IMG/VR virus record: IMGVR_UViG_3300031993_000012
Span: 1 to 64,000 of that record
DNA length: 64,000 nt
Direction: 5' to 3' (one strand)
Source: a virus
Taxonomy: Duplodnaviria > Caudoviricetes
How positions within the stretch are numbered: the first letter of the stretch is position 1; each line of letters starts with the position of its first letter. Under the pieces are notes generated by a model. The model did no database searches. It saw only the letters and a list, made by a program, of their open reading frames with translations, and was not told the origin of the DNA. Position numbers and translations under genes: made by a program. Positions 11,063 to 48,176 of the stretch are shown here, piece after piece.

Positions 11063-11906
11063 TATCAATAGAAGTAAGATTGTTGATTTCAATCAGATAT
11101 TCAACAATCATCGTTATTTTGTAAATAGAATGAATATATACCTGCTGAATATTCAGCTCATTGGAAATGGTTATCGACACATGGATCAAGAAACATACAA
11201 TACATGTTTCCGTAATGCATTATCTGCAATTGAACTCAACAGTGATCCAATTGAATCAATCGTACCATATTCTGATGTCGATACGGATGGTTTTGAAAAC
11301 GATCGTTCGTTCTATTTGAATTATGAAACTGAAGAGGCAAAAGCAATTGTTGAAAAGATTGATGCTGATGTAATGCGCGATACATTATTACCCGGCAGCG
11401 ATTTAGCAGCTAAATTTGCCAATGAAGAAGTTTCATTGAAAGATCTCGTGGATGATGTATATTTACATTATCTGGTAACCAAGTATTGGGAGCAAGTTAA
11501 TGCATTACGTTTCCAAGCATATTCCAATCTCACACCACTGATTGAATATACCGTTGAATTGGTTAATGAGAAAACATTGAAGAATTACATGGTATCACGA
11601 CGTGAGAATATCGAAAAGTATGAAATGAAATGCCGTGATATTATATGTAATTATGAAATGTCAATCGTATGTCGAACATTTAACAATGAAGAATTGTTAT
11701 CCAAGTTCGACATCAAAACATTTGATCTTCAAAAGTTAATGATATCATTGGCAACTAATTTAACGGTAAAAACCGATATCTATATTATACTCGGAATATA
11801 TGGTGCAATATCATTTGCTTCAGTTGAACTCAGTAAATCTAAGATAGATAAACTTTCACCATGTGTGGATTTCGTACGAATGATTTCTGAATACATGAAT
11901 AAATAA
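11055..11906 (+). CDS. Hypothetical protein
   Basis: 283-aa ORF followed by a GCGGGGGAA-ta-TTCCCCCGC hairpin. Confidence 0.75.
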   Translation: MFNINRSKIVDFNQIFNNHRYFVNRMNIYLLNIQLIGNGYRHMDQETYNTCFRNALSAIELNSDPIESIVPYSDVDTDGFENDRSFYLNYETEEAKAIVEKIDADVMRDTLLPGSDLAAKFANEEVSLKDLVDDVYLHYLVTKYWEQVNALRFQAYSNLTPLIEYTVELVNEKTLKNYMVSRRENIEKYEMKCRDIICNYEMSIVCRTFNNEELLSKFDIKTFDLQKLMISLATNLTVKTDIYIILGIYGAISFASVELSKSKIDKLSPCVDFVRMISEYMNK

Positions 11907-12001: not shown

Positions 12002-14350
12002 ATGTTAAAACCAAAACAACTTAATCATGCTGATATTAAACGTCGTGATACGGTTCGCCGTGTTATGAACAAAAGCTCTGATATCAGAATGAAAATGGAG
12101 TCTGTCAACAAGTACAGTTTATGTGGTGTATCCGGTTTAGGTTTTCCGGGTAAAATATCACCGGTTCGTAGTTTGATGTTTTCCAAGCATGCTTCTCAAC
12201 GTGTCGTTCTAGACCACGGAGAATTTCCACGTATATTCACCGGTGCAGAAGATGCATACGGCAAACGTTCATCATTCTTTGTAACCGCAAAGAATAATCT
12301 CGTGTTAGAACGTAAATTCGTTAAATTTCCAAACACACCATATTCATCGGTACTGTATATTTTCCGAGATACAGTTACCAATAAATATGTTTGTCATTTA
12401 GCAGAAGCGGTTCATTGGAATGTTGAGAAATACGGATTCCAAAACATCGATATGATTAAAAACAATTACGATGTATCAGATACCATTCCGAAGGGTACGG
12501 TTATATCAAAAACCACATCATATGATGAAAACAATCATTACTGCGCAGGAGCAAATTTACGAATATTATATACAACATTACATGATCTAACCGAGGATGC
12601 AATTATATTATCCGAATCAGCATGTAAGAAGTTAGAATATTCAATGGTTGATAAAGTAACCGTTGATATCAGTGAGAAAATGTTCATGCTGAATAATTAC
12701 GGAACCTTAGAGAATTATAAAGCATTTCCAGATATTGGTGAAGAAATCCAGTCAGGTATTTTATGTTCATTAAGAGAAATCTCCGCGTTATCCAGTAAAT
12801 CCGAAGCAATGATTCCACATATCAATGATGTCAATTATTATACCAATGGAATCATTACTGATATTGATATCTATAGCAATTGTCCCGATCTTCAGGATAA
12901 ACAGCTTGCATATTATCATAATTGCGTAATGAATTGGTATACCGAAATATATTCGTATGTATCAACAATAATCAATCATGTTGATCAGGATGATACTAAA
13001 TTACTTGATATTTATCATAAAGCCAAGAAGTATCTGATGACACAAGCAAAATGGAGTACCAAAGAAAAGCTCCCGTATATTCAGGTCGTATTTAAAATAC
13101 TCCAGAAAAAGAAGATACGCAAAGGTCAGAAGATTACTGGTCGTTATGGAAACAAATCCGTTGTATCATTAATACTTCCAGATCGTTGTATGCCAAAGGA
13201 TGAATTCGGTAGACCAGTTGATATGTTGGCAAATGGATTTGCTCCTACCAATAGAATCATTGGATTTGCATTATATGAAGGAACGATTACATTTCAAATG
13301 GAATGTATTCATAATTATATACTTGATCCAAAGAATAATCTTTCGCGTGATGAAGCCGTTCAATTGGTAATTGATTACATGAGTTTATTCAATCACGATT
13401 GGGCAAATAGCATCAAACGTAAATATCAATATAATCCACAAGCAACATATGATGATATTCGCAAGAATGGATTATATATGTTAATGCCACCATTCCAACC
13501 AGAAAACGTTCGTGATGCAACAATCGAAGCATATGACAGATGGGAAGAAGTTGCTGAAGACGGAACCAATGCAGCATCCGCAAAATGGGAACGTTCAATC
13601 TTCCATAAGTACACAATCAAAACCAAACTCCGTCATCGTTGGATTGAACAGAAACGTGAACGTCATGCAATTGGTTATCAGTATACATGGGTTCTTAAAC
13701 AGGAAGCTTCTAAGAATATGACTGCAGTTGCAACTGGACGTACTACATTATACGATTTACCAATTAAAACATCCAACTATAAGAATCGTAAAATACAATA
13801 CTCTGACAATGCAATCAAGTTTGGTGAGTATGATACGTACGGATTCCTTCAGGTAGTTGATGTTGAAATGTTTGGTAAGATGACAACATATTATCGTGGT
13901 TCTCAGTATGAAGAGAATTCATTACTCATGTCACATCTGAATGATATTGGTATTCCCGAAGGTGCAGTTAATCAGTTCCCACAACTTGATTGTTTCAAAG
14001 CGTATCTGAAGGCAATTGGAATTAAATTGGAGAATGATTTCACTGTTAATTCAATTAATGCTGTTGATAAAGAAGAAACATTCGAGATTGGAAATCATTC
14101 TGTTAAGATATCTGGTTCATATCTCAGAACATTACTTGTCATATACTCATACTATATTCAATATAAGAATTGGTTGAAAGCAAATAACAATGGTTGTGAA
14201 GAAGCAACTGTTGATATGAATACATTTGTCGATAATATGTTGAATCGTACAGATTTATTCCATTTCAAGAATGAATCATATATACGTGAAGCATTCATGC
14301 ATTTCTTCGAAAAGTTCCGTATACTTGACGAAGAGAAGTTCTTAAAGTAA
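12002..14350 (+). CDS. rpoB: Multisubunit RNA polymerase beta subunit, C-terminal half (probably non-virion RNAP)
   Basis: EDAIILSES, GQKITGRYGNKSVVS, LKQ, KFGEYD correspond to beta motifs EDS/A, GDKxxxRHGNKG, LxH and RFGEME; AGGAGG RBS before ATG 12002. Confidence 0.92.
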   Translation: MLKPKQLNHADIKRRDTVRRVMNKSSDIRMKMESVNKYSLCGVSGLGFPGKISPVRSLMFSKHASQRVVLDHGEFPRIFTGAEDAYGKRSSFFVTAKNNLVLERKFVKFPNTPYSSVLYIFRDTVTNKYVCHLAEAVHWNVEKYGFQNIDMIKNNYDVSDTIPKGTVISKTTSYDENNHYCAGANLRILYTTLHDLTEDAIILSESACKKLEYSMVDKVTVDISEKMFMLNNYGTLENYKAFPDIGEEIQSGILCSLREISALSSKSEAMIPHINDVNYYTNGIITDIDIYSNCPDLQDKQLAYYHNCVMNWYTEIYSYVSTIINHVDQDDTKLLDIYHKAKKYLMTQAKWSTKEKLPYIQVVFKILQKKKIRKGQKITGRYGNKSVVSLILPDRCMPKDEFGRPVDMLANGFAPTNRIIGFALYEGTITFQMECIHNYILDPKNNLSRDEAVQLVIDYMSLFNHDWANSIKRKYQYNPQATYDDIRKNGLYMLMPPFQPENVRDATIEAYDRWEEVAEDGTNAASAKWERSIFHKYTIKTKLRHRWIEQKRERHAIGYQYTWVLKQEASKNMTAVATGRTTLYDLPIKTSNYKNRKIQYSDNAIKFGEYDTYGFLQVVDVEMFGKMTTYYRGSQYEENSLLMSHLNDIGIPEGAVNQFPQLDCFKAYLKAIGIKLENDFTVNSINAVDKEETFEIGNHSVKISGSYLRTLLVIYSYYIQYKNWLKANNNGCEEATVDMNTFVDNMLNRTDLFHFKNESYIREAFMHFFEKFRILDEEKFLK

Positions 14351-26601: not shown

Positions 26602-28104
26602 TTAAAGCTTCGTCAACGTGTATAATGCCGACGTGAATTCAAGTCCAGTTGAAAAAATTCCTGTACCTTGTAAACGAGTGTTAGATATTTTTGCCAACAT
26701 TATTCTTTCAGCTTCTTCATTTGCTTCATCCGTCATTAATCCACAACTCTTGACGGTGTCTCCATCGTAGTCACCCAGCCATTTTGGTAAGTTACTATTG
26801 GATGGAGTGAGTGTGTCTTTGAAGAATGTAGCAACACGATAATGATCCATATCAGGATCGACTATCGGATAGTATGGAAAATGTTCGTTATTGAATGTAA
26901 TATCCATTGTTCGGTTTGTCGATAATACAACAACATGTGTGAAGAATGCACCCAAATAATTACCAATCGGATATCGTACGGCGTAACACATACGTTTTGC
27001 ATCAACGATACCATGTTTTGCCGCAATGTAAATCACATCGGTTAATGTTAATGGGCGTGTAATGGTTTCTTGTTTTTTATTGTCATATAATGTAATTGTG
27101 ATTGGTTTTTGATGTTCAGGATCCAAATACAGTATACGGAAACGAGCACCATAATTTTCACGGTATACATCCAACATATCCGCTATAGCACGTTCATCAT
27201 ACATGTTTGCTAACATCGCACCGTTTACTTCTTCGGGATTATTATGAATGGCTTTGATGTTATTTACCGAAAGAAACTCTTTGATTTGGAATCTTAATAT
27301 AGGATTGAATAATGTACACAATGTATGGAGTGGATAACCCGTCTCATATACTCCAATAAAAGGTTCGTCATCTTTGTATGTTGGAGCGGAAATAACGTTT
27401 CTTGCTGTCCATACTGCTGTCTTTGCCAATAGATTCTTTTGGAGAAATCCATTTTTGGTTCCAAGATATTTTTGAATATAAGTATACAATTCAACGATTG
27501 CATCTTGGAGTTTATTATGTACTTGAGCAGCAGTGGTGGTTACACGTGCCGTAATTGATTTGTATCCTAAAATTTTCATATAAATAGAATTGATTTCGGA
27601 TTTAACAGCACGACCATTCCTCATACCGATTGGACGGAAGTTTGGTGGAAGCACCAATAATTTATTGATGAATATTAAATCTCTCGGACATTTAGTCAAT
27701 ATATCGATATTATCATCACTACGGGTTTTCAATGTTTTCTTGATATCGATATCATTCCATATCTTATACAAATCAACCATACCAGAATATTGACCATCTG
27801 GAGATTCGGTTAATACTCCTTTGATTAAATCATATCTGGCTAAACCATACGCACATTTTCTAATAACACCACCAGAACGTGCAATGATTGTTTTTGCAAC
27901 CATTGGATTGAATACTCTGATTGGGAGTTTGATATAACCACATCTGTACCAACGTTCATTTGGAGTGGTACCAAATATTTCTTCTGAGAATAATCCCGCA
28001 GGATTATAAACATTTTGTGATCTGTAAATAACCGAAGAAGTTACCTCTTTTAAATCATTAATTTTAATATCTTCTTCTATATTATATAAACCTTGCACTT
28101 TCAT
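26602..28104 (-). CDS. rpoC: RNA polymerase beta' subunit, N-terminal/catalytic part (probably virion RNAP)
   Basis: GLFSEEIFG, GYIKL, LLVLPPNFRP, ARNVIS, RYP and catalytic GDYDGD (NADFDGD equivalent); co-oriented with the tail genes. Confidence 0.92.
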   Translation of the reverse strand: MKVQGLYNIEEDIKINDLKEVTSSVIYRSQNVYNPAGLFSEEIFGTTPNERWYRCGYIKLPIRVFNPMVAKTIIARSGGVIRKCAYGLARYDLIKGVLTESPDGQYSGMVDLYKIWNDIDIKKTLKTRSDDNIDILTKCPRDLIFINKLLVLPPNFRPIGMRNGRAVKSEINSIYMKILGYKSITARVTTTAAQVHNKLQDAIVELYTYIQKYLGTKNGFLQKNLLAKTAVWTARNVISAPTYKDDEPFIGVYETGYPLHTLCTLFNPILRFQIKEFLSVNNIKAIHNNPEEVNGAMLANMYDERAIADMLDVYRENYGARFRILYLDPEHQKPITITLYDNKKQETITRPLTLTDVIYIAAKHGIVDAKRMCYAVRYPIGNYLGAFFTHVVVLSTNRTMDITFNNEHFPYYPIVDPDMDHYRVATFFKDTLTPSNSNLPKWLGDYDGDTVKSCGLMTDEANEEAERIMLAKISNTRLQGTGIFSTGLEFTSALYTLTKL

Positions 28105-28169
28105 TTATATTCATTCCTTTCATGAATGGATTTTTACGAACGAGTTTTTCCAATTATATTTTCGAAACA

Positions 28170-28240
28170 ATATTTATATCATTTTTTTGTACAAGGAACC
28201 AACATCTTTGTACACTTAAATCAGAAGGAGGTTATTAAAA
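28170..28240 (+). promoter_or_regulatory. Promoter + hairpin leader shared by the two RNAP beta-half genes (copy 2)
   Basis: Closely matches 11933-12001. Confidence 0.75.
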
Positions 28241-30324
28241 ATGATTGATTACATTTTTGATGATGACGAGAATCCAATGAATAACGTGACCATTAATCTT
28301 GGTACTGATAGACCATTATATCAGTACGTGATTAAAGCGTTAAAATCATTGGAGATTATCCAATTAATGAGATTGAATCCGATTAAGGATGCTCCAAAGG
28401 ATAGTTATCCATTTCTCATTGTTGGTAATTTCAAATGGAACCCACATCCGGATCCATCTGAACTACAAACACGTCGTCGTGAAACTGGTACTAAGATTCA
28501 AACTAAAAGCATTGCCGATATCCGAGTCGGTTTGTTGGATTTTGATATCGTATGGGGAGCACGTGACAAAAACAAATTCTTGGAGAAACATATCGATCAT
28601 AATACATTATTGATTCCGATTGCTGATGATCAAGGTCGATATTTACTTGATAATGAATTGTATACAGAATATCAGTTGGTAGATAAATTTCTGTATCCAT
28701 CCGGTGCAAATTCTGTAACGTTGAAATCGTTACTTCCGATTGTGGTTCGTCGTTCAGAACATGATTTGATATCAATGGATGGTTTTGTTGTTACATGTAC
28801 GAAAGTAATGGATGTAATGATATTCAAAACATACGAATCAATCATTACATGTTTCATGCACATAACATCACCATTATCATTCCTTGGTGTATTTCCGGTT
28901 GTTCAATATACGGATAAAATCATTGATGATAAAAATGATTTCGAATATTTCCAACCAATTAAAGAACGTCCAATTTATATCAAAGCGTATCGTAAAGGTT
29001 TGGAACAATTTGAATATGTTCGTTCGATTGTATATATGCTCGTACAGGTAATCAAAGAATATGAACCACAAAATATTGATGAAGTACGAGATCCATCATG
29101 GTGGGTATATCAGTTATCATATTATCCGAATAATGAAATCGAACATCGTGGTGCATGTAATGTAATGCATGTTGCACGAATGTTGGATTCAATATCAGCA
29201 TGGGAACTTCCAATCCCAGAATGTGACAAACGTAATATGGTTTCATTATTGAGATATGTATTACAAACGGAATTCACTGATGTTAATATATATTCATTCG
29301 AAAATAAACGTATCCGTTTGAATGAAGTAATATCAACAATTGTTACTGCGAAAGTATCGGATAATTTGAAACGTTTATTCCGTTATGGTATATTGGCAAA
29401 AACAAAAGATTCGGAAGCAAGTATGAAATTCTCACCGAATCTAATTATATCCAAAATACATTCATTGGGAACGATCCATACAACGGATTTCACAAATGAT
29501 ATGGATTATTACCAGTCACTTAAAGTCACGCGCAAAGGTCAATTAGCGGCCTGACACTTCATATATGCGGGAACGTCTTGGGTGGTGACAATAATTCCAA
29601 GAGGCGACTCATAGTTTACGAACAGAATATGAGCGTTGGGTAAAGCTTTAACTACCAAATGTCGAATGGTAATGCTGACGACTTCCGAAAGGTATGGTAA
29701 TAAGGTTAAAGATATATCCTCAATCCGCACGCAAGGGATGATGCAAAATCATCGTCATTTCAGCGTCAACGACTATCTCAGAAATGGGAGTACACTCATA
29801 AGCTAATGATGAGTGGATACGAAGTGCATATGATTGTCGGGATGATAAGCATATGAAGATATAGTCTGCTCTTCAGGGAAATCCTGAAGAAGTTCATAAA
29901 AGAACTGCATGATTTTGCGAATCATGTGAACACAAGGCCTAATGCATTAGGAAGAACCGACCAGCATAAAGTTGGTTTCGGCCATAAACAACTTAACCCG
30001 TCACAGATTGGAGTAATAGATCTGTATGAATCCGTAAAGGATGTTGGACAGACATGTATGCTTTCACCATATGCTGATCTCACAATCCTTCAGGAATATG
30101 ACAGAAATAAATATCCAAATATTAAATACGATTTATTTAAATTCATCCAAGACGAATTCAGAGATTATTCAGCAATATATTTCAATTGTGAAACCATTGA
30201 AGAATACAATGATATTCTGGATAAACTTTGTTACGAATCAACTATCACACTTGACTATTATATACCAAATCTCATCAACAATGGTCTTGGTGGATTTATA
30301 ATGAATAGTAAAGGTGGTTTCTAA
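28241..30324 (+). CDS. rpoB: RNA polymerase beta subunit, N-terminal half, spliced: join(28241..29539,29938..30324), 561 aa
   Basis: NKRIRLNE motif; joining the exons restores TRKG|PNALG (GPGGL equivalent) followed by LNPSQIGVID (VHxSHYGRIC equivalent). Confidence 0.85.
29540..29937 (+). ncRNA. Group I self-splicing intron (398 nt, no internal ORF)
   Basis: 5' exon ends in U and intron ends in G; P1 AGGU/C pairs with GGCCU (U-G at the splice site); P10 AUUAG pairs with exon CUAAU; P AUGCGGGAA, Q AAUCCGCA, R CAACGACUA, S AAGAUAUAGUC. Confidence 0.93.
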
Positions 30325-32855: not shown

Positions 32856-33094
32856 TGTACACCATTGAGGTATCATGGGGTGAGAAACGTGAATGCGTTT
32901 TTAATCCTATACAGGAAGAAACAATCTGGGGAGTGATTCTCAGATTGCAAACATTGTGGAATGCTAATACATCCACATTAAATTTCTCCACAAAGATAAT
33001 GGAGAATGATAAAATTATTTATGATGGACCTCTCAATCAGTTTGTGATTGATGGTTTCCGTTATGATGTCATTAAGGAGATGATGAAAAAATGA
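32852..33094 (+). CDS. Hypothetical protein
   Basis: 80 aa, AAGGAGGTG RBS. Confidence 0.7.
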   Translation: MMYTIEVSWGEKRECVFNPIQEETIWGVILRLQTLWNANTSTLNFSTKIMENDKIIYDGPLNQFVIDGFRYDVIKEMMKK

Positions 33095-35031
33095 ATAAGC
33101 TTGAAGTATTAACAATCGTAAAAGATTGGATACATGATTTGTCATATATTAATATGGAGACCGATGTTGAACATATTATGGATACTGATGGAGATACATT
33201 TAAAGTATATTATATTTCATCAGAATTCATAATTTCGATTACGTGGCTCGCACACAGTGAGTCTATCACCATTCTTATCAATCACCAATTTATCGCATCC
33301 ATTGAAAATAATGGTGAAATAGTTTATGATGAATCATACTACGAAGAAAAGCTTAAACCATTGGTTCAGTTTGATATTCGTTCTCTGATCAGCAGACTGA
33401 AACACCCACCGACGAAAGAATTCAAAGCATTCTGTAAAGGTGTTGAAGAATGGTTATCCCATTTGAATAATTCAACATTCAAATGGTATTGGTATTCTCC
33501 AACAGTGAATTCAATCGGTAAATGTTATAAAGTTAATGTTGGACCATTCGAGCGTTTATTCCATATCGAAAACTGTGATGGTGGAATTATACTGGATATC
33601 AATTATAATCAGACAATCAAATATATCGATGGTTTGGTAACAGTATTGCCTAAATCAGTAATTAAACCATTTACGTTTGAAGAAATATCACATTTACGTG
33701 ATACGATATTTTCCAGCATGCATAATGAGGAAAACAATCTCAAAATTATACGTATTGAGGAAATATTAAAACAGTGGTTATCGGATATGTCAATGACATA
33801 TACACGTAATGGTGAACATGCATATATTGCATGTATAACACAGCGTGGTTTACACCCATCTACGCACGCTCATATCGGCGTTAGTGTTCATGAGCAGAAT
33901 CCATGTATTTGGTTGTACAACACAACCAACCGCATTATTACATTCGATCCGGATAATAATTGGGAACCGGATATGTTAACTACATATTCTAATCATTATC
34001 CATTCTCTCATACTAATCTTACGAAACTCATGGCAATGTATGTTAAAGAATTTTGTGGTATTGATTATGAATTCCGCAATACAATATTTAATACAATTGA
34101 GCAGTTTTTAAAACGCAGATATCATGGGAGAATTGCGTTATCAAAAAACAATATCAAACATGTTAGATGGAATTTCCGTGGTAAAATCTTTGAATTCGTT
34201 TGGGTTCATGACAGATGGAGAGTATCTACTACCAATTTAGGTGTACACGTTCGAATCTCTGATATTTATCCATCTGGTGATATCAATATGGGTTCATGTA
34301 TAGGCTCAGAAGAAAAAGGTCTTATCAATGAAATCCGTGAAGCCATTAAACCAGTACCGGATTCCACGGATGAAGATTTACTGGAATCTATCAGTAAAGA
34401 ATACAGAACAATCACTGATGTACTGACTGATGATTTCAAGAAGAAAGTCAAGGAACGTAATACTGTAATTAATTCCAGTGATATTAATAATGTCATTAAC
34501 GTTATTAATGCTGGTGACATCCAGGAATTTCCTAGTAAAATTGAAGTTGCTGAGTCTATATTCCATCATAGACCTATAGATGAAATCAGAAAAGAGTTCA
34601 ATGATGCAGTTCATTCAATTAAACCGGAAACACTCTGGTTTGATTCAATGACTGATGTTATTGAAAATATTAAAAAGCAGGAGGAAAAAGAAATGCTTAT
34701 TGACGAAACATTGGCTGTTAAAATTGTTAAACAGCGGGGAGGTATGTATATACCGGAAATCAAACACGTACTCTTTAATGAGACAAAGCTTGTTACTACC
34801 GTAATATTTACGGATGGTGACAGAGTCACATCCAAATGCTGTGATGAAAATGTATTCGATCCCGAAATGGGATTCGCAATGTGCATCATGAAGAAGCTTT
34901 ATGGTAATCGCACACGTTTCCAGAAGGAAATCAAGAAATATCACAACGCAGGTATTCATCGGAATATCAAAATCGCAGAAAAAGCAGCGCGTAAAGAAAA
35001 AGAAAAAGAAGAAAACGACGCTGAAATATAA
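33091..35031 (+). CDS. Multidomain hypothetical protein
   Basis: 646 aa; C-terminal IKHVLFN...TTVIFTDG...KC...FDPEMGFAMCIMKK domain seen in many Firmicute phage proteins. Confidence 0.75.
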   Translation: MNKLEVLTIVKDWIHDLSYINMETDVEHIMDTDGDTFKVYYISSEFIISITWLAHSESITILINHQFIASIENNGEIVYDESYYEEKLKPLVQFDIRSLISRLKHPPTKEFKAFCKGVEEWLSHLNNSTFKWYWYSPTVNSIGKCYKVNVGPFERLFHIENCDGGIILDINYNQTIKYIDGLVTVLPKSVIKPFTFEEISHLRDTIFSSMHNEENNLKIIRIEEILKQWLSDMSMTYTRNGEHAYIACITQRGLHPSTHAHIGVSVHEQNPCIWLYNTTNRIITFDPDNNWEPDMLTTYSNHYPFSHTNLTKLMAMYVKEFCGIDYEFRNTIFNTIEQFLKRRYHGRIALSKNNIKHVRWNFRGKIFEFVWVHDRWRVSTTNLGVHVRISDIYPSGDINMGSCIGSEEKGLINEIREAIKPVPDSTDEDLLESISKEYRTITDVLTDDFKKKVKERNTVINSSDINNVINVINAGDIQEFPSKIEVAESIFHHRPIDEIRKEFNDAVHSIKPETLWFDSMTDVIENIKKQEEKEMLIDETLAVKIVKQRGGMYIPEIKHVLFNETKLVTTVIFTDGDRVTSKCCDENVFDPEMGFAMCIMKKLYGNRTRFQKEIKKYHNAGIHRNIKIAEKAARKEKEKEENDAEI

Positions 35032-35116
35032 AAAGGCAAAAGAAGTAACATATAATTACATCAATTAGAGATTGACGAACCTGTCAACTGAATGTTCAAT
35101 GTATAATTGATGACAT

Positions 35117-35199
35117 TACCGTTTGGCGACATACACAATCACTCATGTCGTTTCGATGAGTGTCAGACAGCAATCAATGTGTATGTTCGCCGACGGGTA
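35117..35199 (+). ncRNA. Structured RNA: long closing stem enclosing hairpin + ACAGCAAT
   Basis: TTGGCGA-CATACACA pairs with TGTGTATG-t-TCGCCGA; inner CACTCAT/ATGAGTG hairpin; ACAGCAATC at 35167. Confidence 0.55.
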
Positions 35200-35204
35200 T
35201 TTGT

Positions 35205-35285
35205 GGATGTGTGGCGGAATGGCAGACGCGCTGGTCTCAAGTACCAGTTCCGAAAGGAGTGAGGTTTCGAGTACCTCCACATCTA
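35205..35285 (+). tRNA. tRNA-Leu(CAA)
   Basis: Acceptor GGATGTG/CACATCT, anticodon arm CTGGT-CTCAAGT-ACCAG, long variable arm, T-loop TTCGAGT, A73. Confidence 0.9.
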
Positions 35286-35393
35286 TTACTGGGGTTACGT
35301 TTATATTACGGCTTCTGACTTTGCGGTTCATTGCGTAACTCCAGATCACCCCTAAAACCCGGGTAGCCTTTGCGTATCTACCCGGGCAAAAAA

Positions 35394-35507
35394 CGACGGA
35401 TAACTCAGTAGGTAGAGTACGTAAAGGAATCTAGATTTAGATTCGTACAGCAATCAGCTTGCATTCTAAGCACGGTGTCGTAGGTTCGAGTCCTACTCCG
35501 TCGACCA
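35394..35507 (+). tRNA. tRNA-Arg(TCT) interrupted by a 38-nt insertion (35423-35460) in the anticodon stem
   Basis: Perfect acceptor CGACGGA/TCCGTCG-A-CCA, D and T arms; removing the insert gives CGTGC-ATTCTAA-GCACG. Confidence 0.75.
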
Positions 35508-35508
35508 A

Positions 35509-35608
35509 TGGTCATGATGGGTAATTCCCCATCTTGTATTTAAGATGGTAACAGCAATCATCGGTGAATAAATGACGTTCGAATCGTAAATATTATTCAT
35601 CATGACCA
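35509..35608 (+). ncRNA. tRNA-like RNA with long terminal stem, hairpin + ACAGCAAT and a T-loop
   Basis: TGGTCATGATGGGTAAT pairs with ATTATTCATCATGACCA; CCATCTT/AAGATGG hairpin; ACG-TTCGAAT-CGT. Confidence 0.6.
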
Positions 35609-35614
35609 ATCTAT

Positions 35615-35722
35615 GCGGATATTAGCTCAATTGGATAGAGCGTACGGCCATAAGGAATCTAGATTTAGATTCGTACAGCAATAACACCATAAGGTTATCA
35701 GTTCGAATCTGATATATCCGCG
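35615..35722 (+). tRNA. tRNA-like gene whose anticodon loop is replaced by the hairpin+ACAGCA insert; anticodon unassignable
   Basis: 8-bp acceptor GCGGATAT/ATATCCGC, D arm GCTC-AATTGGATA-GAGC (A20, Arg-like), T arm ATCAG-TTCGAAT-CTGAT. Confidence 0.65.
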
Positions 35723-35731
35723 AATCAAACC

Positions 35732-35830
35732 CATTAGCCGCATAGTTTAGAATAGGTTAAAACGCTGAATATAATCTGAGCATACTAGGACTATTCGGAA
35801 AAGGTTGTTCGAATCGACCTGGGGTTAATG
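35732..35830 (+). tRNA. Degenerate tRNA-like element with 20-nt anticodon loop
   Basis: D arm GTTT-AGAATAGGTTA-AAAC, CTGAATA/TATTCGG stem, T-loop GTTCGAATC, terminal CATTAGCC/GGTTAATG pairing. Confidence 0.5.
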
Positions 35831-35843
35831 AGTTTAATCATAT

Positions 35844-35955
35844 GAAGGTGTTAGTTTAGTTGGTTAAAACGCGTTAAGGAATCTAGTGATAGATTCGTAC
35901 AGCATATTATTTGCATATGGCGCACGAGACACATGTTCAAATCATGTACACCTTC
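35844..35955 (+). tRNA. tRNA-His-like (ATG anticodon) interrupted by a 38-nt insertion (35875-35912)
   Basis: G-1:C73 pair, acceptor AAGGTGT/ACACCTT; removing the insert gives CGTGC-ATATGGC-GCACG. Confidence 0.7.
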
Positions 35956-35963
35956 TTCCAGAT

Positions 35964-36570
35964 GTGACATTAGCGCAGTCGGTAGCGCATTCGCTTTAAA
36001 GGAGAAATAATATGGAATTATCAACACATGCTAAAGGAGTTGTAACAGAATTAGCTGTACAACAAGCATTCATTAAACATGGATTCGGCGTATCAGTCCC
36101 AGTGTTACCCACTTCTAGATATGACATGATTGCTGATATTGATAGCAATTTATTCAAAGTCCAAATTAAAACAGCTAAGAAACTTCCAAATTCAGATGCC
36201 TTTATGATCAGAACGAAATCAACTAGAACACATCGATACGGTGTATCCGTTGTTAAATATACAGCGGATGAAATTGATATGTTTGCTACATGTTATAATG
36301 GTGATGTCTATGTTGTTCCACAATATTTAGCACAAGGAACTGAATTCATTTTTAGAAATTCATCAGCGAGTAACCAGAAAGTTGGTATTCATTTTGCATC
36401 TGATTTTAAGTTGGATAATGTTGTTGAAAAATGGAGAAATCAATCATTATCATTCAACAATAACCAACTTTATTTGAATAATAATGTATTATGATTATAT
36501 GATATTATTCAAATATAATAATTATCCTTTAAAGCGTGGGTCGTGGATTCGAGTTCCACATGTCACACCA
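35964..36570 (+). tRNA. tRNA split in the anticodon loop by an ORF-containing insertion of about 530 nt (halves 35964-36000 and 36528-36570)
   Basis: Acceptor GTGACAT/ATGTCAC-A-CCA, D arm GCGC-AGTCGGTA-GCGC, T arm GTGGA-TTCGAGT-TCCAC. Confidence 0.75.
36012..36494 (+). CDS. PD-(D/E)XK endonuclease, I-Ssp6803I-like homing endonuclease family
   Basis: KGVVTEL...G..VSVP...RYDMIAD....KVQIKT...Y...EIDMFA signature; AAAGGAG RBS inside the tRNA insertion. Confidence 0.88.
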   Translation: MELSTHAKGVVTELAVQQAFIKHGFGVSVPVLPTSRYDMIADIDSNLFKVQIKTAKKLPNSDAFMIRTKSTRTHRYGVSVVKYTADEIDMFATCYNGDVYVVPQYLAQGTEFIFRNSSASNQKVGIHFASDFKLDNVVEKWRNQSLSFNNNQLYLNNNVL

Positions 36571-36782
36571 TTGCGGTCTTCAGACAGCCGCAACAATTCC
36601 TAATCACGGCTGGCACTTATACATCCCTTCGTGTCAGCCACATATGTAACCAATGAGCTTGTCCATCTCAGAGGTTGCACCTCAATTGACAGCGATATCC
36701 ACGCCGCTGTTACATATCCTTTCATTTACGGCAGCTCCTTCGGGAGCTGCTGTAGTACCATTTATCTTTAGGAGGAATTTTT

Positions 36783-37523
36783 ATGTTACCCGAAATAATC
36801 AATTATGCTGATGAGAAAACTCACGAATTTCGTAAATCCATTGTCAGTGGTAAACCAAAAACAATATTGGTTATACATGATGATGACAGATCGAAATATC
36901 TTGGATTGTTTGCTATGTTAAGCGGCAATAAATGTGAGATAATAAACAATTCAACCGCAATGTATCATATATCCCACGACGTTATATTTGACGATGGTAT
37001 ATCAATTGATGATATTACATTCAATATATTTGATAAAGGTAATCTTTCTGAAACTCATGTCAGAATGGTAAAAATGCCAGATGATATATTAAATGAAACC
37101 ATCAGAGATATTGCATTAGGTAAAATAACCGAAGCTCCATTAGTAGTAAGCTTGTTGACGATGTATGAAAAATGTAATGGTACGGAATATATGACCAAAG
37201 TATACACAGATGTCAGATGCGATGATAAAACTGTCGATTTATATCATGATAATCATTATAATGTCACATCAAATTCAGAGAGAATCAAATCTACGGATCC
37301 TTATGATCAGATGGAAACAGCCATGATATTTAAAAACTATTTATCATATGGATTGACTGTGTGGTATATATTCCAAAAGGTCATTGGTGATGATGAATTA
37401 AAACAGTTCGTCACCAAATGCAAATGTAAACACAAATATTGTGGTAAAGAAATAACTGTTACTAAATATTCAATAGCATGTCAGAAATTGATACTTCATT
37501 TGGCTGAACGTATGAAAAAATAA
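36783..37523 (+). CDS. Hypothetical protein
   Basis: 246 aa, AGGAGG RBS. Confidence 0.75.
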   Translation: MLPEIINYADEKTHEFRKSIVSGKPKTILVIHDDDRSKYLGLFAMLSGNKCEIINNSTAMYHISHDVIFDDGISIDDITFNIFDKGNLSETHVRMVKMPDDILNETIRDIALGKITEAPLVVSLLTMYEKCNGTEYMTKVYTDVRCDDKTVDLYHDNHYNVTSNSERIKSTDPYDQMETAMIFKNYLSYGLTVWYIFQKVIGDDELKQFVTKCKCKHKYCGKEITVTKYSIACQKLILHLAERMKK

Positions 37524-37602
37524 TATGATATCCCCAGATAATTCTGGGGATATATTTTTTGTGTAATATGAACATTAGAGTATAAAAACATTACATGAAT
37601 GA

Positions 37603-37677
37603 TTCCGTATCGCCAAGGGGTTAAGGCAGATGTCTTTGAAGCATCTATCGCTCGTTCGATCCGAGCTACGGAAACCA
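37603..37677 (+). tRNA. tRNA-Gln(TTG)
   Basis: Acceptor TTCCGTA/TACGGAA-A-CCA, anticodon arm GATGT-CTTTGAA-GCATC, T-loop TTCGATC. Confidence 0.9.
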
Positions 37678-37919
37678 AAGGAAGTTTACTTCCAAACAGA
37701 TGTGAGGTTCACGTTTTCACATTTGTCTCCTTAACTTTTAGCCATGTGGATACTAGTTGCCACCTTCTCTGGTATCCACGCGCTTCTTTTGTTCTATATC
37801 CTACTTCTAATTTTAGCCCGGGTTATTCCCGGGCATCTATTTTTTTCAAATTCCATATTTATATTATTTAATTGGATTCTATGAACGTAGAATCAAAAAT
37901 ATATCGGAGGTATAAAAAT

Positions 37920-37994
37920 ATGTTTGCAAAATTAATCGAATTCATTAGAGGTATCGTATCATTCCTGAGCGGAATGTTATTTGCCATCAGATAA
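37920..37994 (+). CDS. 24-aa amphipathic/hydrophobic peptide MFAKLIEFIRGIVSFLSGMLFAIR
   Basis: GGAGGT RBS, first ORF after the promoter motif at about 37850; stop overlaps the next RBS. Confidence 0.5.
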   Translation: MFAKLIEFIRGIVSFLSGMLFAIR

Positions 37995-38007
37995 GGAGGA
38001 ACATAAA

Positions 38008-38748
38008 ATGGAAATATTATTAGATAACAAAAGTATCGCTGAAAAGATTGCATATGTAGATGCAGTGGAGCGCGTTGCATTGTGTAGTAATCAGTATGTA
38101 TATACTGCATTTCATAATGTAATTGTCACCGATAATGTTGAATTTGATGTAGATTTCTACATAGGAGATCCACGAGAGGTAGATTGGGATTATACTCAGC
38201 TCGATGAAGAAACCGTTAGATTTAAATTCGACGAATCTGACATTAAACTTCTTAAGGAATGCCATAATAGTAAAGAGCTTAATCAGGTGGTTCACAAAAT
38301 TCTTATATCGTGTATCGAGAAGCTTAACAAAGAACTGAGTGATCTAATCGGTGCTGGATATGTTGATTTTCAAACAATGATCTACTATAATAACTATACG
38401 AATGTAATCAGAAGCTGGAAGAATCTTAGAATTGATTCAGGGTGGCAAATCAAAAAACCTAACAATTATGGTGCAACAGATAGCGTTAAACAGGGTGACT
38501 CTGATTGGGGTGTACTCCAATTTATATGGGGAACTGCTGTTTATAAATTTGGAGATTATGGTACATCTCCTAGAGTCGGATGGATAGATATCAAAGAACA
38601 TCCAGAATTCTATGAATGGATAGATGCTGTATGTTTCGATGACATCAGTAATAACATATCCGTGAAGACAAAAGAATTGACTAATGAATTCAGAAAGGTG
38701 GTGAAGAATATTGGGGCCGTCAGTCCTGAAGACAATCGTGCAACTTGA
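38008..38748 (+). CDS. Hypothetical protein, start MEILLD
   Basis: AAGGAGG RBS. Confidence 0.75.
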   Translation: MEILLDNKSIAEKIAYVDAVERVALCSNQYVYTAFHNVIVTDNVEFDVDFYIGDPREVDWDYTQLDEETVRFKFDESDIKLLKECHNSKELNQVVHKILISCIEKLNKELSDLIGAGYVDFQTMIYYNNYTNVIRSWKNLRIDSGWQIKKPNNYGATDSVKQGDSDWGVLQFIWGTAVYKFGDYGTSPRVGWIDIKEHPEFYEWIDAVCFDDISNNISVKTKELTNEFRKVVKNIGAVSPEDNRAT

Positions 38749-47295: not shown

Positions 47296-47396
47296 AATAG
47301 GAAAGTAACACTTTCTATTATCATATAATATCAATCTTTACGGGTTGTTCCCAGTGTATCTGTACAGATATGCGAATAACAAGAAAGGAGTACGTT

Positions 47397-48176
47397 ATGG
47401 CACGTACAAAGAAAACAACAGTAGAGGAAGCAACTGAGGAGAAGGTTGCATTCCAGCCCAAGAAGACAGTGAAGCTGTTCTTCTTCACAGAAATCCTTGG
47501 AAGCTGCCCCGCAGACAAGGAGATCTACTCAAAGTACATCGCAAAGAATCGTCTTGATGCACCAACCATTCAGGACGAACTCCAGATGGTACCTGAGGAA
47601 GAAGTTATCGAGCAGGGAACCACTTGCTTCCTGGTGAGGACCCACGGAAAGGATAAGGGTAAGCCCTGTCTGGCAGCGTATACAATTCTCGGTTTCATGA
47701 AAGAGAAGACCAAGTATCTCCGTCAGGAACCCGGTAATGGATTTGACAAATTCACCAACTACAAGTCCAAAATCGATGGTAATTTCAACATTGATAAACC
47801 GTTCATTACATTACATCTTCCCGAAGGAGAAGAAATGGGTATCTGTCAGAGACCTCTCAGGGCCGAGACTGCGCAGGGTCCGAGAGTAGCACTCGCTTCC
47901 AGCCTCACATGCCCTCCCGGTACAACCTGCGAATTCGAGCTCTATATCAATAACAAGGAGTTCAATAAGTACGCAATCGGTTGTCTCCGTAAAGGTTTCC
48001 TCAGTGGAACCGGTCAGTGGCGTTCTTCTCAGCAGAAAGGCAGATTCCTGTTTGAAATCTATGATGCTGATGATACTTATATTGACGGTAATACCAAAGA
48101 ACATGTAGGTTGTCTTTCAACTGATGCCAACTGGGAAGAAATGTGGAGCGACTTCCTCGACGAATATCGTCTGTAA
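47397..48176 (+). CDS. Stand-alone Cas7/RAMP-superfamily-like protein
   Basis: N-terminal strand + ILGS, PCLAAYTILGFMKE (P.I...S.KG..R equivalent), CPPGTTCEFEL strand, Gly-rich loop GTGQWRSSQQKGRF; AAAGGAG RBS. Confidence 0.75.
   Translation: MARTKKTTVEEATEEKVAFQPKKTVKLFFFTEILGSCPADKEIYSKYIAKNRLDAPTIQDELQMVPEEEVIEQGTTCFLVRTHGKDKGKPCLAAYTILGFMKEKTKYLRQEPGNGFDKFTNYKSKIDGNFNIDKPFITLHLPEGEEMGICQRPLRAETAQGPRVALASSLTCPPGTTCEFELYINNKEFNKYAIGCLRKGFLSGTGQWRSSQQKGRFLFEIYDADDTYIDGNTKEHVGCLSTDANWEEMWSDFLDEYRL

What the first reader, a model, noticed from the sequence alone, without database searches (positions are those of the whole stretch)
35117..35912. A 'hairpin + ACAGCA(AT)' module recurs in five neighbouring RNAs with three unrelated hairpin sequences
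Seen: ACAGCA at 35167, 35447, 35551, 35675 and 35899, each 2-4 nt after a 7-bp hairpin (CACTCAT/ATGAGTG, GAATCTA/TAGATTC three times, CCATCTT/AAGATGG) and enclosed by an outer stem. Two hosts are not tRNAs but long-stem RNAs, one with a T-loop and ending in ACCA. Structure plus a single-stranded motif are conserved although stem sequence is not. Inference: a protein-binding or cleavage signal grafted onto tRNA and tRNA-like scaffolds; the long-stem forms loosely resemble bacterial Y RNA architecture.
Basis: partly seen in the sequence, partly recalled or inferred. Interest (0 to 1): 0.72.

Follow-up and report, generated by a model that had tools for sequence, protein, structure and literature searches.

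The report
ACAGCA docking handle inside phage tRNAs
Five neighbouring small RNA genes of a rumen jumbo phage, three of them tRNA-shaped, carry the same portable unit: a capped 7-bp helix followed by single-stranded ACAGCA(A). In other phages this unit marks small RNAs encoded beside Ro60-like ring proteins, so it is more likely a protein-docking arm than an ordinary intron.

Summary
All five ACAGCA copies at 35.1-35.9 kb lie 2-4 nt after a perfect 7-8 bp hairpin; about 1% of genome positions have such a hairpin.

In two tRNA genes the unit is a 38-nt insert exactly between nt 29 and 30 of the anticodon stem. Removing it restores the anticodon arm found in intron-less phage tRNA-Arg(UCU) genes. 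The insert core does not vary in about ten related rumen phages, apart from one compensatory stem change. It fits no group I or bulge-helix-bulge intron.

An unrelated phage lineage has a 52-nt insert at the same 29/30 site of tRNA-Arg(UCU), with a different hairpin but again ACAGCA. Its RNA cluster abuts a DUF2828/DUF7788 gene whose model matches Ro60 structures. RCAGCAA elements lie next to that gene family in five of seven independent loci.

Best reading (about 0.5): a capped version of an apparently undescribed "stem-NN-ACAGCAA" handle that docks a Ro60-like or other trans factor. Whether it is later excised is open. No such protein gene was found in the 182 kb held, which is 68% of the genome.

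This scan has met the same handle before on other DNA (phages and giant viruses). I re-tested the main points here.

The parts
35100..35107 (+). Extended -10 promoter-like TGTATAAT in front of the RNA cluster
   Evidence: Read from the sequence. The upstream region is conserved in relatives. Not tested.
35117..35197 (+). RNA A: leader long-stem RNA. The module is the hairpin at 35140-35162, then UCAG, then ACAGCAAUCA at 35167-35176.
   Evidence: Fold z = -4.0. Basal stem with 2-4 compensatory pairs in 6 lineages. The orthologues carry a different apical part, in which ACAGCU can pair.
35204..35286 (+). tRNA-Leu(CAA), uninterrupted (context)
   Evidence: ARAGORN and Rfam.
35394..35507 (+). tRNA-Arg(UCU) gene carrying the insert, ends CCA
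   Evidence: Rfam tRNA 44.4 bits, with 49 nt where 11 are expected. Exhaustive enumeration gives one canonical solution.
35423..35460 (+). 38-nt insert between nt 29 and 30: AAAG, hairpin 35427-35444, GU, ACAGCA 35447-35452, 8-nt tail ending UU
   Evidence: Removal gives CGUGC/AUUCUAA/GCACG. The same arm, with C32 in place of A32, occurs in intron-less tRNA-Arg(UCU) genes of 4 unrelated phages. Covariance model R1 gives E = 4e-12.
35509..35608 (+). RNA C: 17-bp terminal stem, module (hairpin 35529-35548, UA, ACAGCAAUCA 35551-35560) and a small T-loop-like hairpin; ends GACCA
   Evidence: Fold z = -4.1. Conserved in L031 and L033.
35615..35722 (+). tRNA2: tRNA-shaped RNA with an 8-bp acceptor. 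39 nt (35648-35686) lie between the anticodon-stem strands UACGG and CCAUA. They include the module: hairpin 35655-35672, GU, ACAGCA 35675-35680.
   Evidence: No removal gives a loop with U33. The L031 orthologue has a 61-nt insert with GCAGCA.
35844..35956 (+). tRNA3: tRNA with an 8-bp acceptor stem carrying the insert
   Evidence: The L030 orthologue has the same body with a UCU loop.
35875..35912 (+). 38-nt insert between nt 29 and 30 of tRNA3: UAAG, hairpin 35879-35896, GU, ACAGCA 35899-35904, tail ending UUU
   Evidence: Removal gives CGUGC/AUAUGGC/GCACG with 5 WC pairs, U33 and G37. R1 gives E = 2.5e-11.

Best explanation
The hairpin-plus-ACAGCA unit is a portable RNA handle: a short clamp helix followed 2-4 nt later by single-stranded ACAGCA(A). 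In other phages the same handle closes small RNAs that lie among tRNA genes and next to genes for Ro60-like ring proteins (DUF2828/DUF7788 with a vWA-type C-terminal domain). In this window the clamp helix is capped by a 4-9 nt loop, so the handle can sit inside another RNA. It is inserted exactly between nt 29 and 30 of the anticodon stem of tRNA-Arg(UCU)-type genes, in the anticodon-loop region of a third tRNA-shaped RNA, and in two long-stem RNAs. It most likely works as a docking arm for a trans-acting protein: a Ro60-like protein from the unsampled 30% of the genome or from the host, or another factor that reads stem plus ACAGCAA. That would tether tRNA-shaped cargo in an RNP, as Y RNAs do for Ro60. 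Shown here: the anatomy; the exact insertion site; deep conservation with one compensatory change; recurrence with unrelated stems in another phage lineage; RCAGCAA elements beside Ro60-like genes. Inferred: that a protein binds the handle, which protein it is, and what the RNP does. Whether the arm is later excised to release a working tRNA-Arg is open.
For: (1) The module is non-random.
(2) It is conserved. 13 instances in about 10 related rumen-phage contigs match one covariance model at E < 1e-7. The core AAGGAAUCU...AGAUUCGUACAGCA is invariant, although the neighbouring 646-aa protein is only 27-62% identical. The loop and tail vary freely, and one A-U to U-A compensatory swap occurs.
(3) The same architecture with other sequences occurs in an independent lineage. 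L039/L048 have a 52-nt insert at 29/30 of tRNA-Arg(UCU), an 8-bp hairpin (including two G-U pairs) that ends 1 nt before ACAGCA, and two further tRNA inserts with hairpin + GU/GA + ACAGCAA. Four control phage tRNA arrays have none.
(4) In L039 the RNA cluster abuts a 518-aa DUF2828+DUF7788 gene. The best PDB matches of its AlphaFold model are all Ro60/TROVE proteins over the full length: 9kop, 9l5y, 2nvo, 1yvr, E from 3e-8 to 1e-5.
(5) RCAGCAA lies within 350 nt of that gene family, on the gene's strand, in 5 of 7 independent loci. One is a textbook clamp (8 bp, UU, ACAGCAA, 36-nt cargo, complementary strand, G) starting about 20 nt after the stop codon in L055. About 0.1 per locus is expected by chance.
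(6) The module persists intact in tRNA-shaped genes that cannot give a canonical anticodon arm: window tRNA2, L016 and L031 t2. G001-type genomes carry a terminal-clamp ACAGCA RNA just upstream of the capped-handle tRNA.
(7) The anticodon loops next to the invariant insert vary (UCU, GCU, AUG, CUG, UCC; A33 in three lineages), which is unlike ordinary decoders.
Against: No TROVE, DUF2828 or DUF7788 gene, and no match to a profile of the L039 protein family, was found in the 182-kb record or in partial relatives G001 and G002. The adjacent 646-aa protein is not Ro60-like. Binding has not been shown for any member. In published Ro60 systems the RNA motif is CGAA-type, not ACAGCAA (PMC4201824, PMC12135203). 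The covariance model of the tRNA inserts does not significantly recognise RNA C (E about 3) or RNA A, so their kinship rests on ACAGCAAUCA plus architecture. Exact restoration of a canonical tRNA-Arg(UCU) arm, kept in at least 5 lineages with compensatory changes in the acceptor stem (C1-G72 to G1-C72), is what an intron that must be removed would predict.
Confidence: 0.5

Rival explanations
1. A true protein-dependent tRNA intron. The insert is cut out at U29|W and UU|G30 and the exons are ligated, giving functional tRNA-Arg(UCU). The invariant hairpin-ACAGCA core is the recognition signal of an unknown phage or host splicing enzyme, which could act together with a Ro60-like RNP and an RtcB-type ligase.
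For: Only one removal (36-39 nt after nt 29) gives 5 WC pairs, U33 and R37. The product equals the arm of intron-less tRNA-Arg(UCU) genes, apart from A32 or C32 at loop position 32. The tRNA body evolves under tRNA constraints, and no intron-less allele was seen in this clade. An insert at 29/30 would sit in the part of the stem that the ribosome contacts (established knowledge). AGA makes up 26% of Arg codons. The last 2 nt of the insert covary with nt 37-38: UU/AA against UC/GA.
Against: The insert is far too short for a group I or II core and ends in U or C, not G. No BHB motif can be drawn. No EndA, RtcB, Rnl1 or Rnl2-type ligase was found in 182 kb. The same unit occurs in non-tRNA RNAs and in tRNA-like genes that have no restorable arm. 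The homing-endonuclease cassettes in L025 and L033 bring their own replacement tRNA-Lys, which argues against a general tRNA-splicing activity.
Confidence: 0.25
2. An anti-defence decoy or sponge that does not involve Ro60. Stable tRNA and long-stem scaffolds display single-stranded ACAGCA(A) and anticodon-like loops to titrate a host ribonuclease, such as an ACA-specific MazF-type toxin or an anticodon nuclease.
For: Five copies lie within 800 nt on stable scaffolds. ACAGCA is single-stranded in every fold. Anticodon loops are variable or atypical. The phage tRNA set (Lys UUU, Gln UUG, Arg UCU, Leu CAA) matches typical targets of anticodon nucleases (established knowledge).
Against: No nuclease is known to have this specificity. 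The invariance of the helix sequence and of GU before ACAGCA is not explained by a simple cleavage-site decoy. The co-location with Ro60-like genes elsewhere is left unexplained.
Confidence: 0.12
3. A selfish DNA-level mini-element or gene-conversion cassette with no RNA function, spread among tRNA genes in a region rich in homing endonucleases. The interrupted tRNAs are simply disabled.
For: HNH and PD-(D/E)XK endonuclease genes crowd this cluster. Hairpin alleles are distributed incongruently with the tRNA bodies: the GAAUCUU allele occurs in L020, L033 and L031 t2. The L016 insert, including its tail and 6 nt of exon, equals that of G002 inside a decayed tRNA.
Against: The core is invariant and the tRNA bodies are maintained, with compensatory changes, across lineages whose neighbouring protein is 27-62% identical. 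There are no target-site duplications or terminal repeats. Three different stems with the same flanking motif, and variable loop lengths, point to selection at the RNA level.
Confidence: 0.08

Closest known systems
Y RNAs with Ro60/Rsr, including tRNA-like YrlA of bacteria and mycobacteriophages (Chen et al. 2014, PMC4201824) and Yrl1/2 of Thermus phage phiLo (PMC12135203)
   Same: Small structured RNAs, often tRNA-like, encoded by phages. A helix plus an adjacent conserved single-stranded motif serves as the docking site. The candidate partner elsewhere is a Ro60-shaped TROVE+vWA protein.
   Different: The motif is ACAGCAA, not GNCGAA/GGUCCGA. There is no Rfam YrlA or Y_RNA match. Here the helix is capped and embedded in complete tRNAs in normal orientation. 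The candidate partner family is DUF2828/DUF7788, not Pfam TROVE. No partner gene was found in this record.
Class I RNAs of dictyostelid amoebae (Rfam RF01414; Kjellin et al. 2021, PMC7919456)
   Same: A short stem whose sequence varies but whose pairing is kept, followed by a conserved unpaired motif. The paper gives T, C, C, A, A as near-invariant at positions 3, 6, 9, 10 and 11 of an 11-nt motif. This fits CCUUACAGCAA as I recall it from Avesson et al. 2011 (own knowledge).
   Different: Eukaryotic, 42-65 nt, with the stem joining the 5' and 3' ends; bound by an RRM protein; reported as unique to Dictyostelia. No RF01414 match here. Common descent is unproven.
Archaeal non-canonical tRNA introns, including position 29/30 (review PMC4090602)
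   Same: A short insert at a non-canonical site in the anticodon stem, whose precise removal restores the tRNA.
   Different: No bulge-helix-bulge motif can form. The host is bacterial by its promoter, SD sites and terminators. No EndA gene was found.
'Enigmatic' tRNA introns of Lak megaphages (Devoto et al. 2019, PMC6784885)
   Same: Phage tRNA genes with highly conserved inserts of unknown splicing mechanism, found in gut and rumen-type microbiomes.
   Different: Those were predicted with eukaryotic tRNAscan settings. One is said to encode a tRNA. No ACAGCA handle is described. I did not compare the sequences.
Group I tRNA introns with the PD-(D/E)XK homing endonuclease I-Ssp6803I (PDB 2OST)
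   Same: The neighbouring tRNA-Lys gene is split in the anticodon loop by an insert that encodes an I-Ssp6803I homologue.
   Different: The 36-39-nt inserts have no ORF, no ribozyme core and no terminal G. Even the 530-nt insert leaves no room for a core, and Rfam finds none.

Membership tests
Stem-NN-ACAGCAA handle RNAs (unpublished family, seen repeatedly in this scan) | Helix of about 6-9 bp whose sequence varies, followed 0-4 nt later by unpaired ACAGCA(A) | tested here: met
   Five copies with 7-8 bp WC helices and gaps of 2-4 nt. The same holds in L039/L048 tRNA inserts and in L055 and L058 clamp RNAs.
Stem-NN-ACAGCAA handle RNAs (unpublished family, seen repeatedly in this scan) | Location among phage tRNA genes with tRNA-like cargo | tested here: met
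   All copies lie in the tRNA cluster at 35.1-36.0 kb, and none lies in non-coding DNA elsewhere in the 182 kb. Three of the five are in tRNA-shaped genes.
Stem-NN-ACAGCAA handle RNAs (unpublished family, seen repeatedly in this scan) | A Ro60-like (DUF2828/TROVE + vWA) gene in the same genome, often adjacent | tested here: not met
   No hit for PF05731, PF11443, PF25043 or profile A6 in G000 (68% complete), nor for PF25043 in G001 and G002. Met in L039, L048, L055, L057, L058 and L061.
Y RNA / YrlA | Match to the Rfam Y_RNA or YrlA models | tested here: not met
   cmscan of 34900-38200 at E <= 10 lists neither family.
Y RNA / YrlA | GNCGAA(N)G or GGUCCGA motif in the 5' strand of the terminal stem (PMC4201824) | tested here: not met
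   RNA A has GGCGAC and RNA C has GGUCAUGA near the 5' end. Both are near-misses, not matches.
Y RNA / YrlA | Binding to Ro60/Rsr | not testable with these tools
   Needs RIP or EMSA.
Archaeal-type (BHB) tRNA intron | Two 3-nt bulges separated by a 4-bp helix at the exon-intron junctions | tested here: not met
   Drawn by hand. The required pairing of nt 24-27 with the 3' part of the insert does not exist. The consensus fold shows only the hairpin and a 3-4 bp GCA/UGC helix.
Archaeal-type (BHB) tRNA intron | Splicing endonuclease EndA and RtcB ligase available | tested here: not met
   PF01974 and PF01139 are absent from G000. The host is unknown.
Group I intron | Ribozyme core (P3-P9), U before the 5' splice site, terminal G | tested here: not met
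   The insert is 36-39 nt and ends in U or C. No RF00028 match. Only the U at -1 fits.
Dictyostelid Class I RNA | 6-bp stem joining the 5' and 3' ends plus an 11-nt motif next to the 5' strand; RF01414 match | tested here: not met
   Here the stem is capped and internal. ACAGCAA is shared, but there is no RF01414 hit.

The most novel reading that the evidence does not exclude
The ACAGCAA handle recruits a Ro60-like ring RNP that carries out or directs precise excision and re-ligation of the arm. That would be a protein-guided tRNA splicing or repair pathway in bacteria and their phages, distinct from group I and BHB splicing. The handle could also be related to the unexplained Class I RNAs of social amoebae.
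Probability: 0.12. Interest if true: 0.92.

Novelty: new variant of a known kind. Interest (0 to 1): 0.7.

Why it matters
Bacterial and phage tRNA genes are thought to be interrupted only by self-splicing group I introns. Here a 36-52-nt, non-ribozyme insert sits at one exact site of tRNA-Arg(UCU) in two unrelated phage lineages, and it carries a motif that elsewhere flags the neighbourhood of Ro60-like genes.

If the handle docks a Ro60-like protein, this defines a second RNA recognition code for the Ro60 superfamily, ACAGCAA instead of CGAA. It would also show that phages load whole tRNAs, not only tRNA mimics, onto such particles. That makes the long-open question of what bacterial and phage Ro/Y RNPs do with tRNA-like domains directly testable.

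If the insert is instead spliced, it is a new kind of bacterial intron. Either way, standard tRNA finders miss these genes: ARAGORN at default settings found 2 of at least 6 here.

Tried and rejected
- **Group I intron:** no Rfam hit even at E <= 10; rejected on length and end rules.
- **BHB motif:** cannot be drawn.
- **Small self-cleaving ribozymes (hammerhead, twister, pistol, hairpin):** no core motifs by eye and no Rfam hit.
- **H-type pseudoknot between the hairpin loop and the tail** (GAUU/AAUC in tRNA1): not conserved in relatives, only 3-bp A/U matches.
- **Internal-guide pairing** (CGU with nt 26-28, GCA with U|GC): 3 bp each and in the wrong order for a splint; absent from tRNA2, RNA A and RNA C.
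- **Enzyme searches in G000, all empty:** EndA, RtcB, Rnl1, Rnl2-type ligase, TROVE, DUF2828, DUF7788, profile A6.
- **The 646-aa gene upstream of RNA A as partner:** no Pfam or PHROG family, the model shows repeated alpha/beta modules, and Foldseek TM <= 0.19; rejected as Ro60-like.
- **The 246-aa ORF inside the tRNA operon:** no family, and not conserved in G002/L023.
- **The 268-aa 'RAMP-like' ORF at 47370-48176:** no Pfam or PDB match.
- **Covariance model R1:** does not unite RNA A and RNA C with the tRNA inserts.
- **Looking for the phage's own DUF2828 homologue by contig length among 8000 hits:** uninformative.
- **L029:** a chance match to the search pattern.
- **ARAGORN's alternative readings** (Cys GCA, Ser AGA, 'Pyl' CUA): rejected, because they need mismatched stems, U37 or 8-nt variable loops.

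Full report
**What is in the sequence**

The window belongs to an IMG/VR virus record of 182 kb, judged 68% complete, with 36% G+C. An identical neighbouring protein also lies on a 254-kb contig. Relatives come from cattle and ruminant gut metagenomes.

Behind an extended -10-like TGTATAAT at 35100-35107 lies a dense RNA cluster:
- RNA A (35117-35197)
- tRNA-Leu(CAA)
- tRNA1 (35394-35507)
- RNA C (35509-35608)
- tRNA2 (35615-35722)
- an odd tRNA-like stretch (35728-35842)
- tRNA3 (35844-35956)
- a tRNA-Lys gene split by a 530-nt insert (35964-36570)
- further on, tRNA-Gln

Default ARAGORN and Rfam see only Leu, Gln and, in Rfam, tRNA1 with 49 nt where 11 are expected.

ACAGCA stands at the five stated positions. 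Each copy lies 2-4 nt after a perfect 7-8 bp hairpin. Genome-wide only 6 of 135 ACAGCA copies have such a hairpin, and five of those six are these copies. The background rate of such a hairpin is 1% of positions. Three copies share the 10-mer ACAGCAAUCA.

**What the tRNA copies are**

I tried every possible single excision between the D and T stems. For tRNA1 exactly one gives five Watson-Crick pairs, U33 and a purine at 37. It removes 38 nt (35423-35460) after nt 29 and leaves CGUGC-AUUCUAA-GCACG, an Arg(UCU) arm. The same operation on tRNA3 (35875-35912) gives CGUGC-AUAUGGC-GCACG.

Intron-less tRNA-Arg(UCU) genes of four unrelated phages carry this very arm, with C32 in place of A32. So the insertion point, 29/30, is exact.

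tRNA2 differs. Its stem strands UACGG and CCAUA enclose 39 nt, including the module, and no excision gives a loop with U33.

**Conservation**

Homologues of the 646-aa gene upstream of the cluster are 27-62% identical to it. Through those homologues and DNA patterns I recovered about ten related contigs: G001, G002, L016, L020, L023, L025, L030, L031 and L033. All of them carry the insert.

- The core AAGGAAUCU...AGAUUCGUACAGCA does not vary. The 4-nt loop and the 6-9 nt tail vary freely. The top pair of the helix switches from A-U to U-A in three contexts.
- A covariance model finds 13 instances at E < 1e-7 and none in four control tRNA arrays.
- The tRNA bodies also evolve like real tRNAs, for example C1-G72 to G1-C72 in L020.
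- The anticodon loop beside the invariant insert is unusually variable: UCU, GCU, AUG, CUG and UCC, with A33 in the G001 group.
- Two genes, L016 and window tRNA2, keep a perfect module although their anticodon arm is not restorable.
- Hairpin alleles and tRNA bodies are shuffled among genomes, which points to gene conversion.

**What it is not**

- Not a group I intron. It is too short, ends in U or C, and has no Rfam match.
- Not a BHB intron. No bulge-helix-bulge motif can be drawn.
- No splicing or ligation genes in the 182 kb. EndA, RtcB and T4-type RNA ligases are absent.
- The consensus fold has only the hairpin and a weak GCA/UGC helix at the 3' junction.

**The lead that changed my reading**

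I searched IMG/VR for any 30-60-nt insert at 29/30 of this tRNA-Arg arm. This returned an unrelated phage lineage (L039/L040, with L048 at 83% protein identity).

- Its tRNA-Arg(UCU) has a 52-nt insert at the same site. The hairpin is different: 8 bp including two G-U pairs. ACAGCA follows after one nucleotide, then an A/U tail ending UUU.
- Two more tRNA genes there carry hairpin + GU/GA + ACAGCAA inserts in the loop.
- Terminal-clamp versions (stem strand, AU, ACAGCAA, cargo, complementary strand, G) lie between them.
- Directly downstream is a 518-aa DUF2828+DUF7788 protein. The best PDB matches of its model are all Ro60/TROVE proteins over the full length.
- Among distant homologues of that protein, five of seven independent loci have RCAGCAA within 350 nt on the gene's strand. 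L055 has a clean 8-bp clamp handle starting about 20 nt after the stop codon.

Notes from this scan report the same handle in many phages and giant viruses, and the same Ro60-like association. I used them as leads and re-tested the points above.

The module in this window is topologically the same handle with the helix end capped by a loop. G001-type relatives carry a terminal-clamp ACAGCA RNA just upstream of the capped-handle tRNA.

**RNA A and RNA C**

- RNA A is a conserved leader with a covarying basal stem. Only the window's copy carries the hairpin-ACAGCAAUCA unit. In the orthologues the apical part is different and ACAGCU can pair. This is direct evidence of grafting.
- RNA C is conserved, with its module, in L031 and L033.

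**Limits**

No Ro60-like gene was found in this record or in two partial relatives. The 646-aa neighbour is not Ro60-like. No read data could be obtained.

The docking model (about 0.5) therefore rests on family resemblance. The intron model (about 0.25) stays alive, because the restored Arg(UCU) arm is so exact. The two models can be combined.

Published Ro60 partners use a CGAA-type motif (PMC4201824, PMC12135203). An ACAGCAA-like motif next to a sequence-variable stem is described only for dictyostelid Class I RNAs (PMC7919456).

Noticed in passing
window 35964-36570 (ORF 36012-36494): tRNA-Lys(UUU) is split between U33 and U34 by a 530-nt insert encoding a PD-(D/E)XK (PDDEXK_5) homologue of the homing endonuclease I-Ssp6803I (PDB 2OST, E = 2e-8). 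It is flanked by a 22-nt inverted repeat that extends the anticodon stem. There is no room for a group I core, and the rejoined arm would be 18 nt instead of 17. G002, L016, L020, L023 and L030 have the gene uninterrupted.
   Followed up: partly
L025 rc 11190-11860; L033 7239-7903: In two relatives the same endonuclease family arrives as a cassette that deletes the anticodon arm of the resident tRNA-Lys and brings its own complete replacement tRNA-Lys. This is free-standing homing-endonuclease behaviour inside a tRNA gene.
   Followed up: partly
window 35728-35842: Another tRNA-like stretch, with an AGUUUAG..GGUUAAAAC D-arm-like part and a GGUUGUUCGAAUCGACC T arm, that no tool calls cleanly. 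An orthologue exists in L020 (about 12310-12410). It has no ACAGCA.
   Followed up: no
window 35358-35386: Conserved hairpin CCCGGGUAG...CUACCCGGG followed by CAAAAAA, with no U run, directly upstream of tRNA1. It is present in all relatives in front of the insert-bearing tRNA. It may be a processing or protein-binding site.
   Followed up: no
L014/L023/L025 (G001-type tRNA); L023 3430-3505: Atypical anticodon loops: A33 in AAAUGAA and AACUGGA, on 8-bp acceptor stems with G-1:C73; C33 in the L023 tRNA-Lys (CCUUUAA); a GCU anticodon on the Arg body in L031.
   Followed up: partly
window, whole: ACAGCA is 2.5-fold over-represented on both strands (62 observed against 24 expected from shuffles), mostly inside ORFs. 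The cause was not examined; it may be codon or dipeptide bias.
   Followed up: no
window 33091-35031: The 646-aa protein always encoded just upstream of the RNA cluster has no family. Its model shows three or four repeats of a beta-meander plus helices, with no PDB match.
   Followed up: partly
window 26602-29554: Split multisubunit RNA-polymerase-like genes (weak Rpb1 domain 1 hit) suggest an AR9/phiKZ-like jumbo phage.
   Followed up: no
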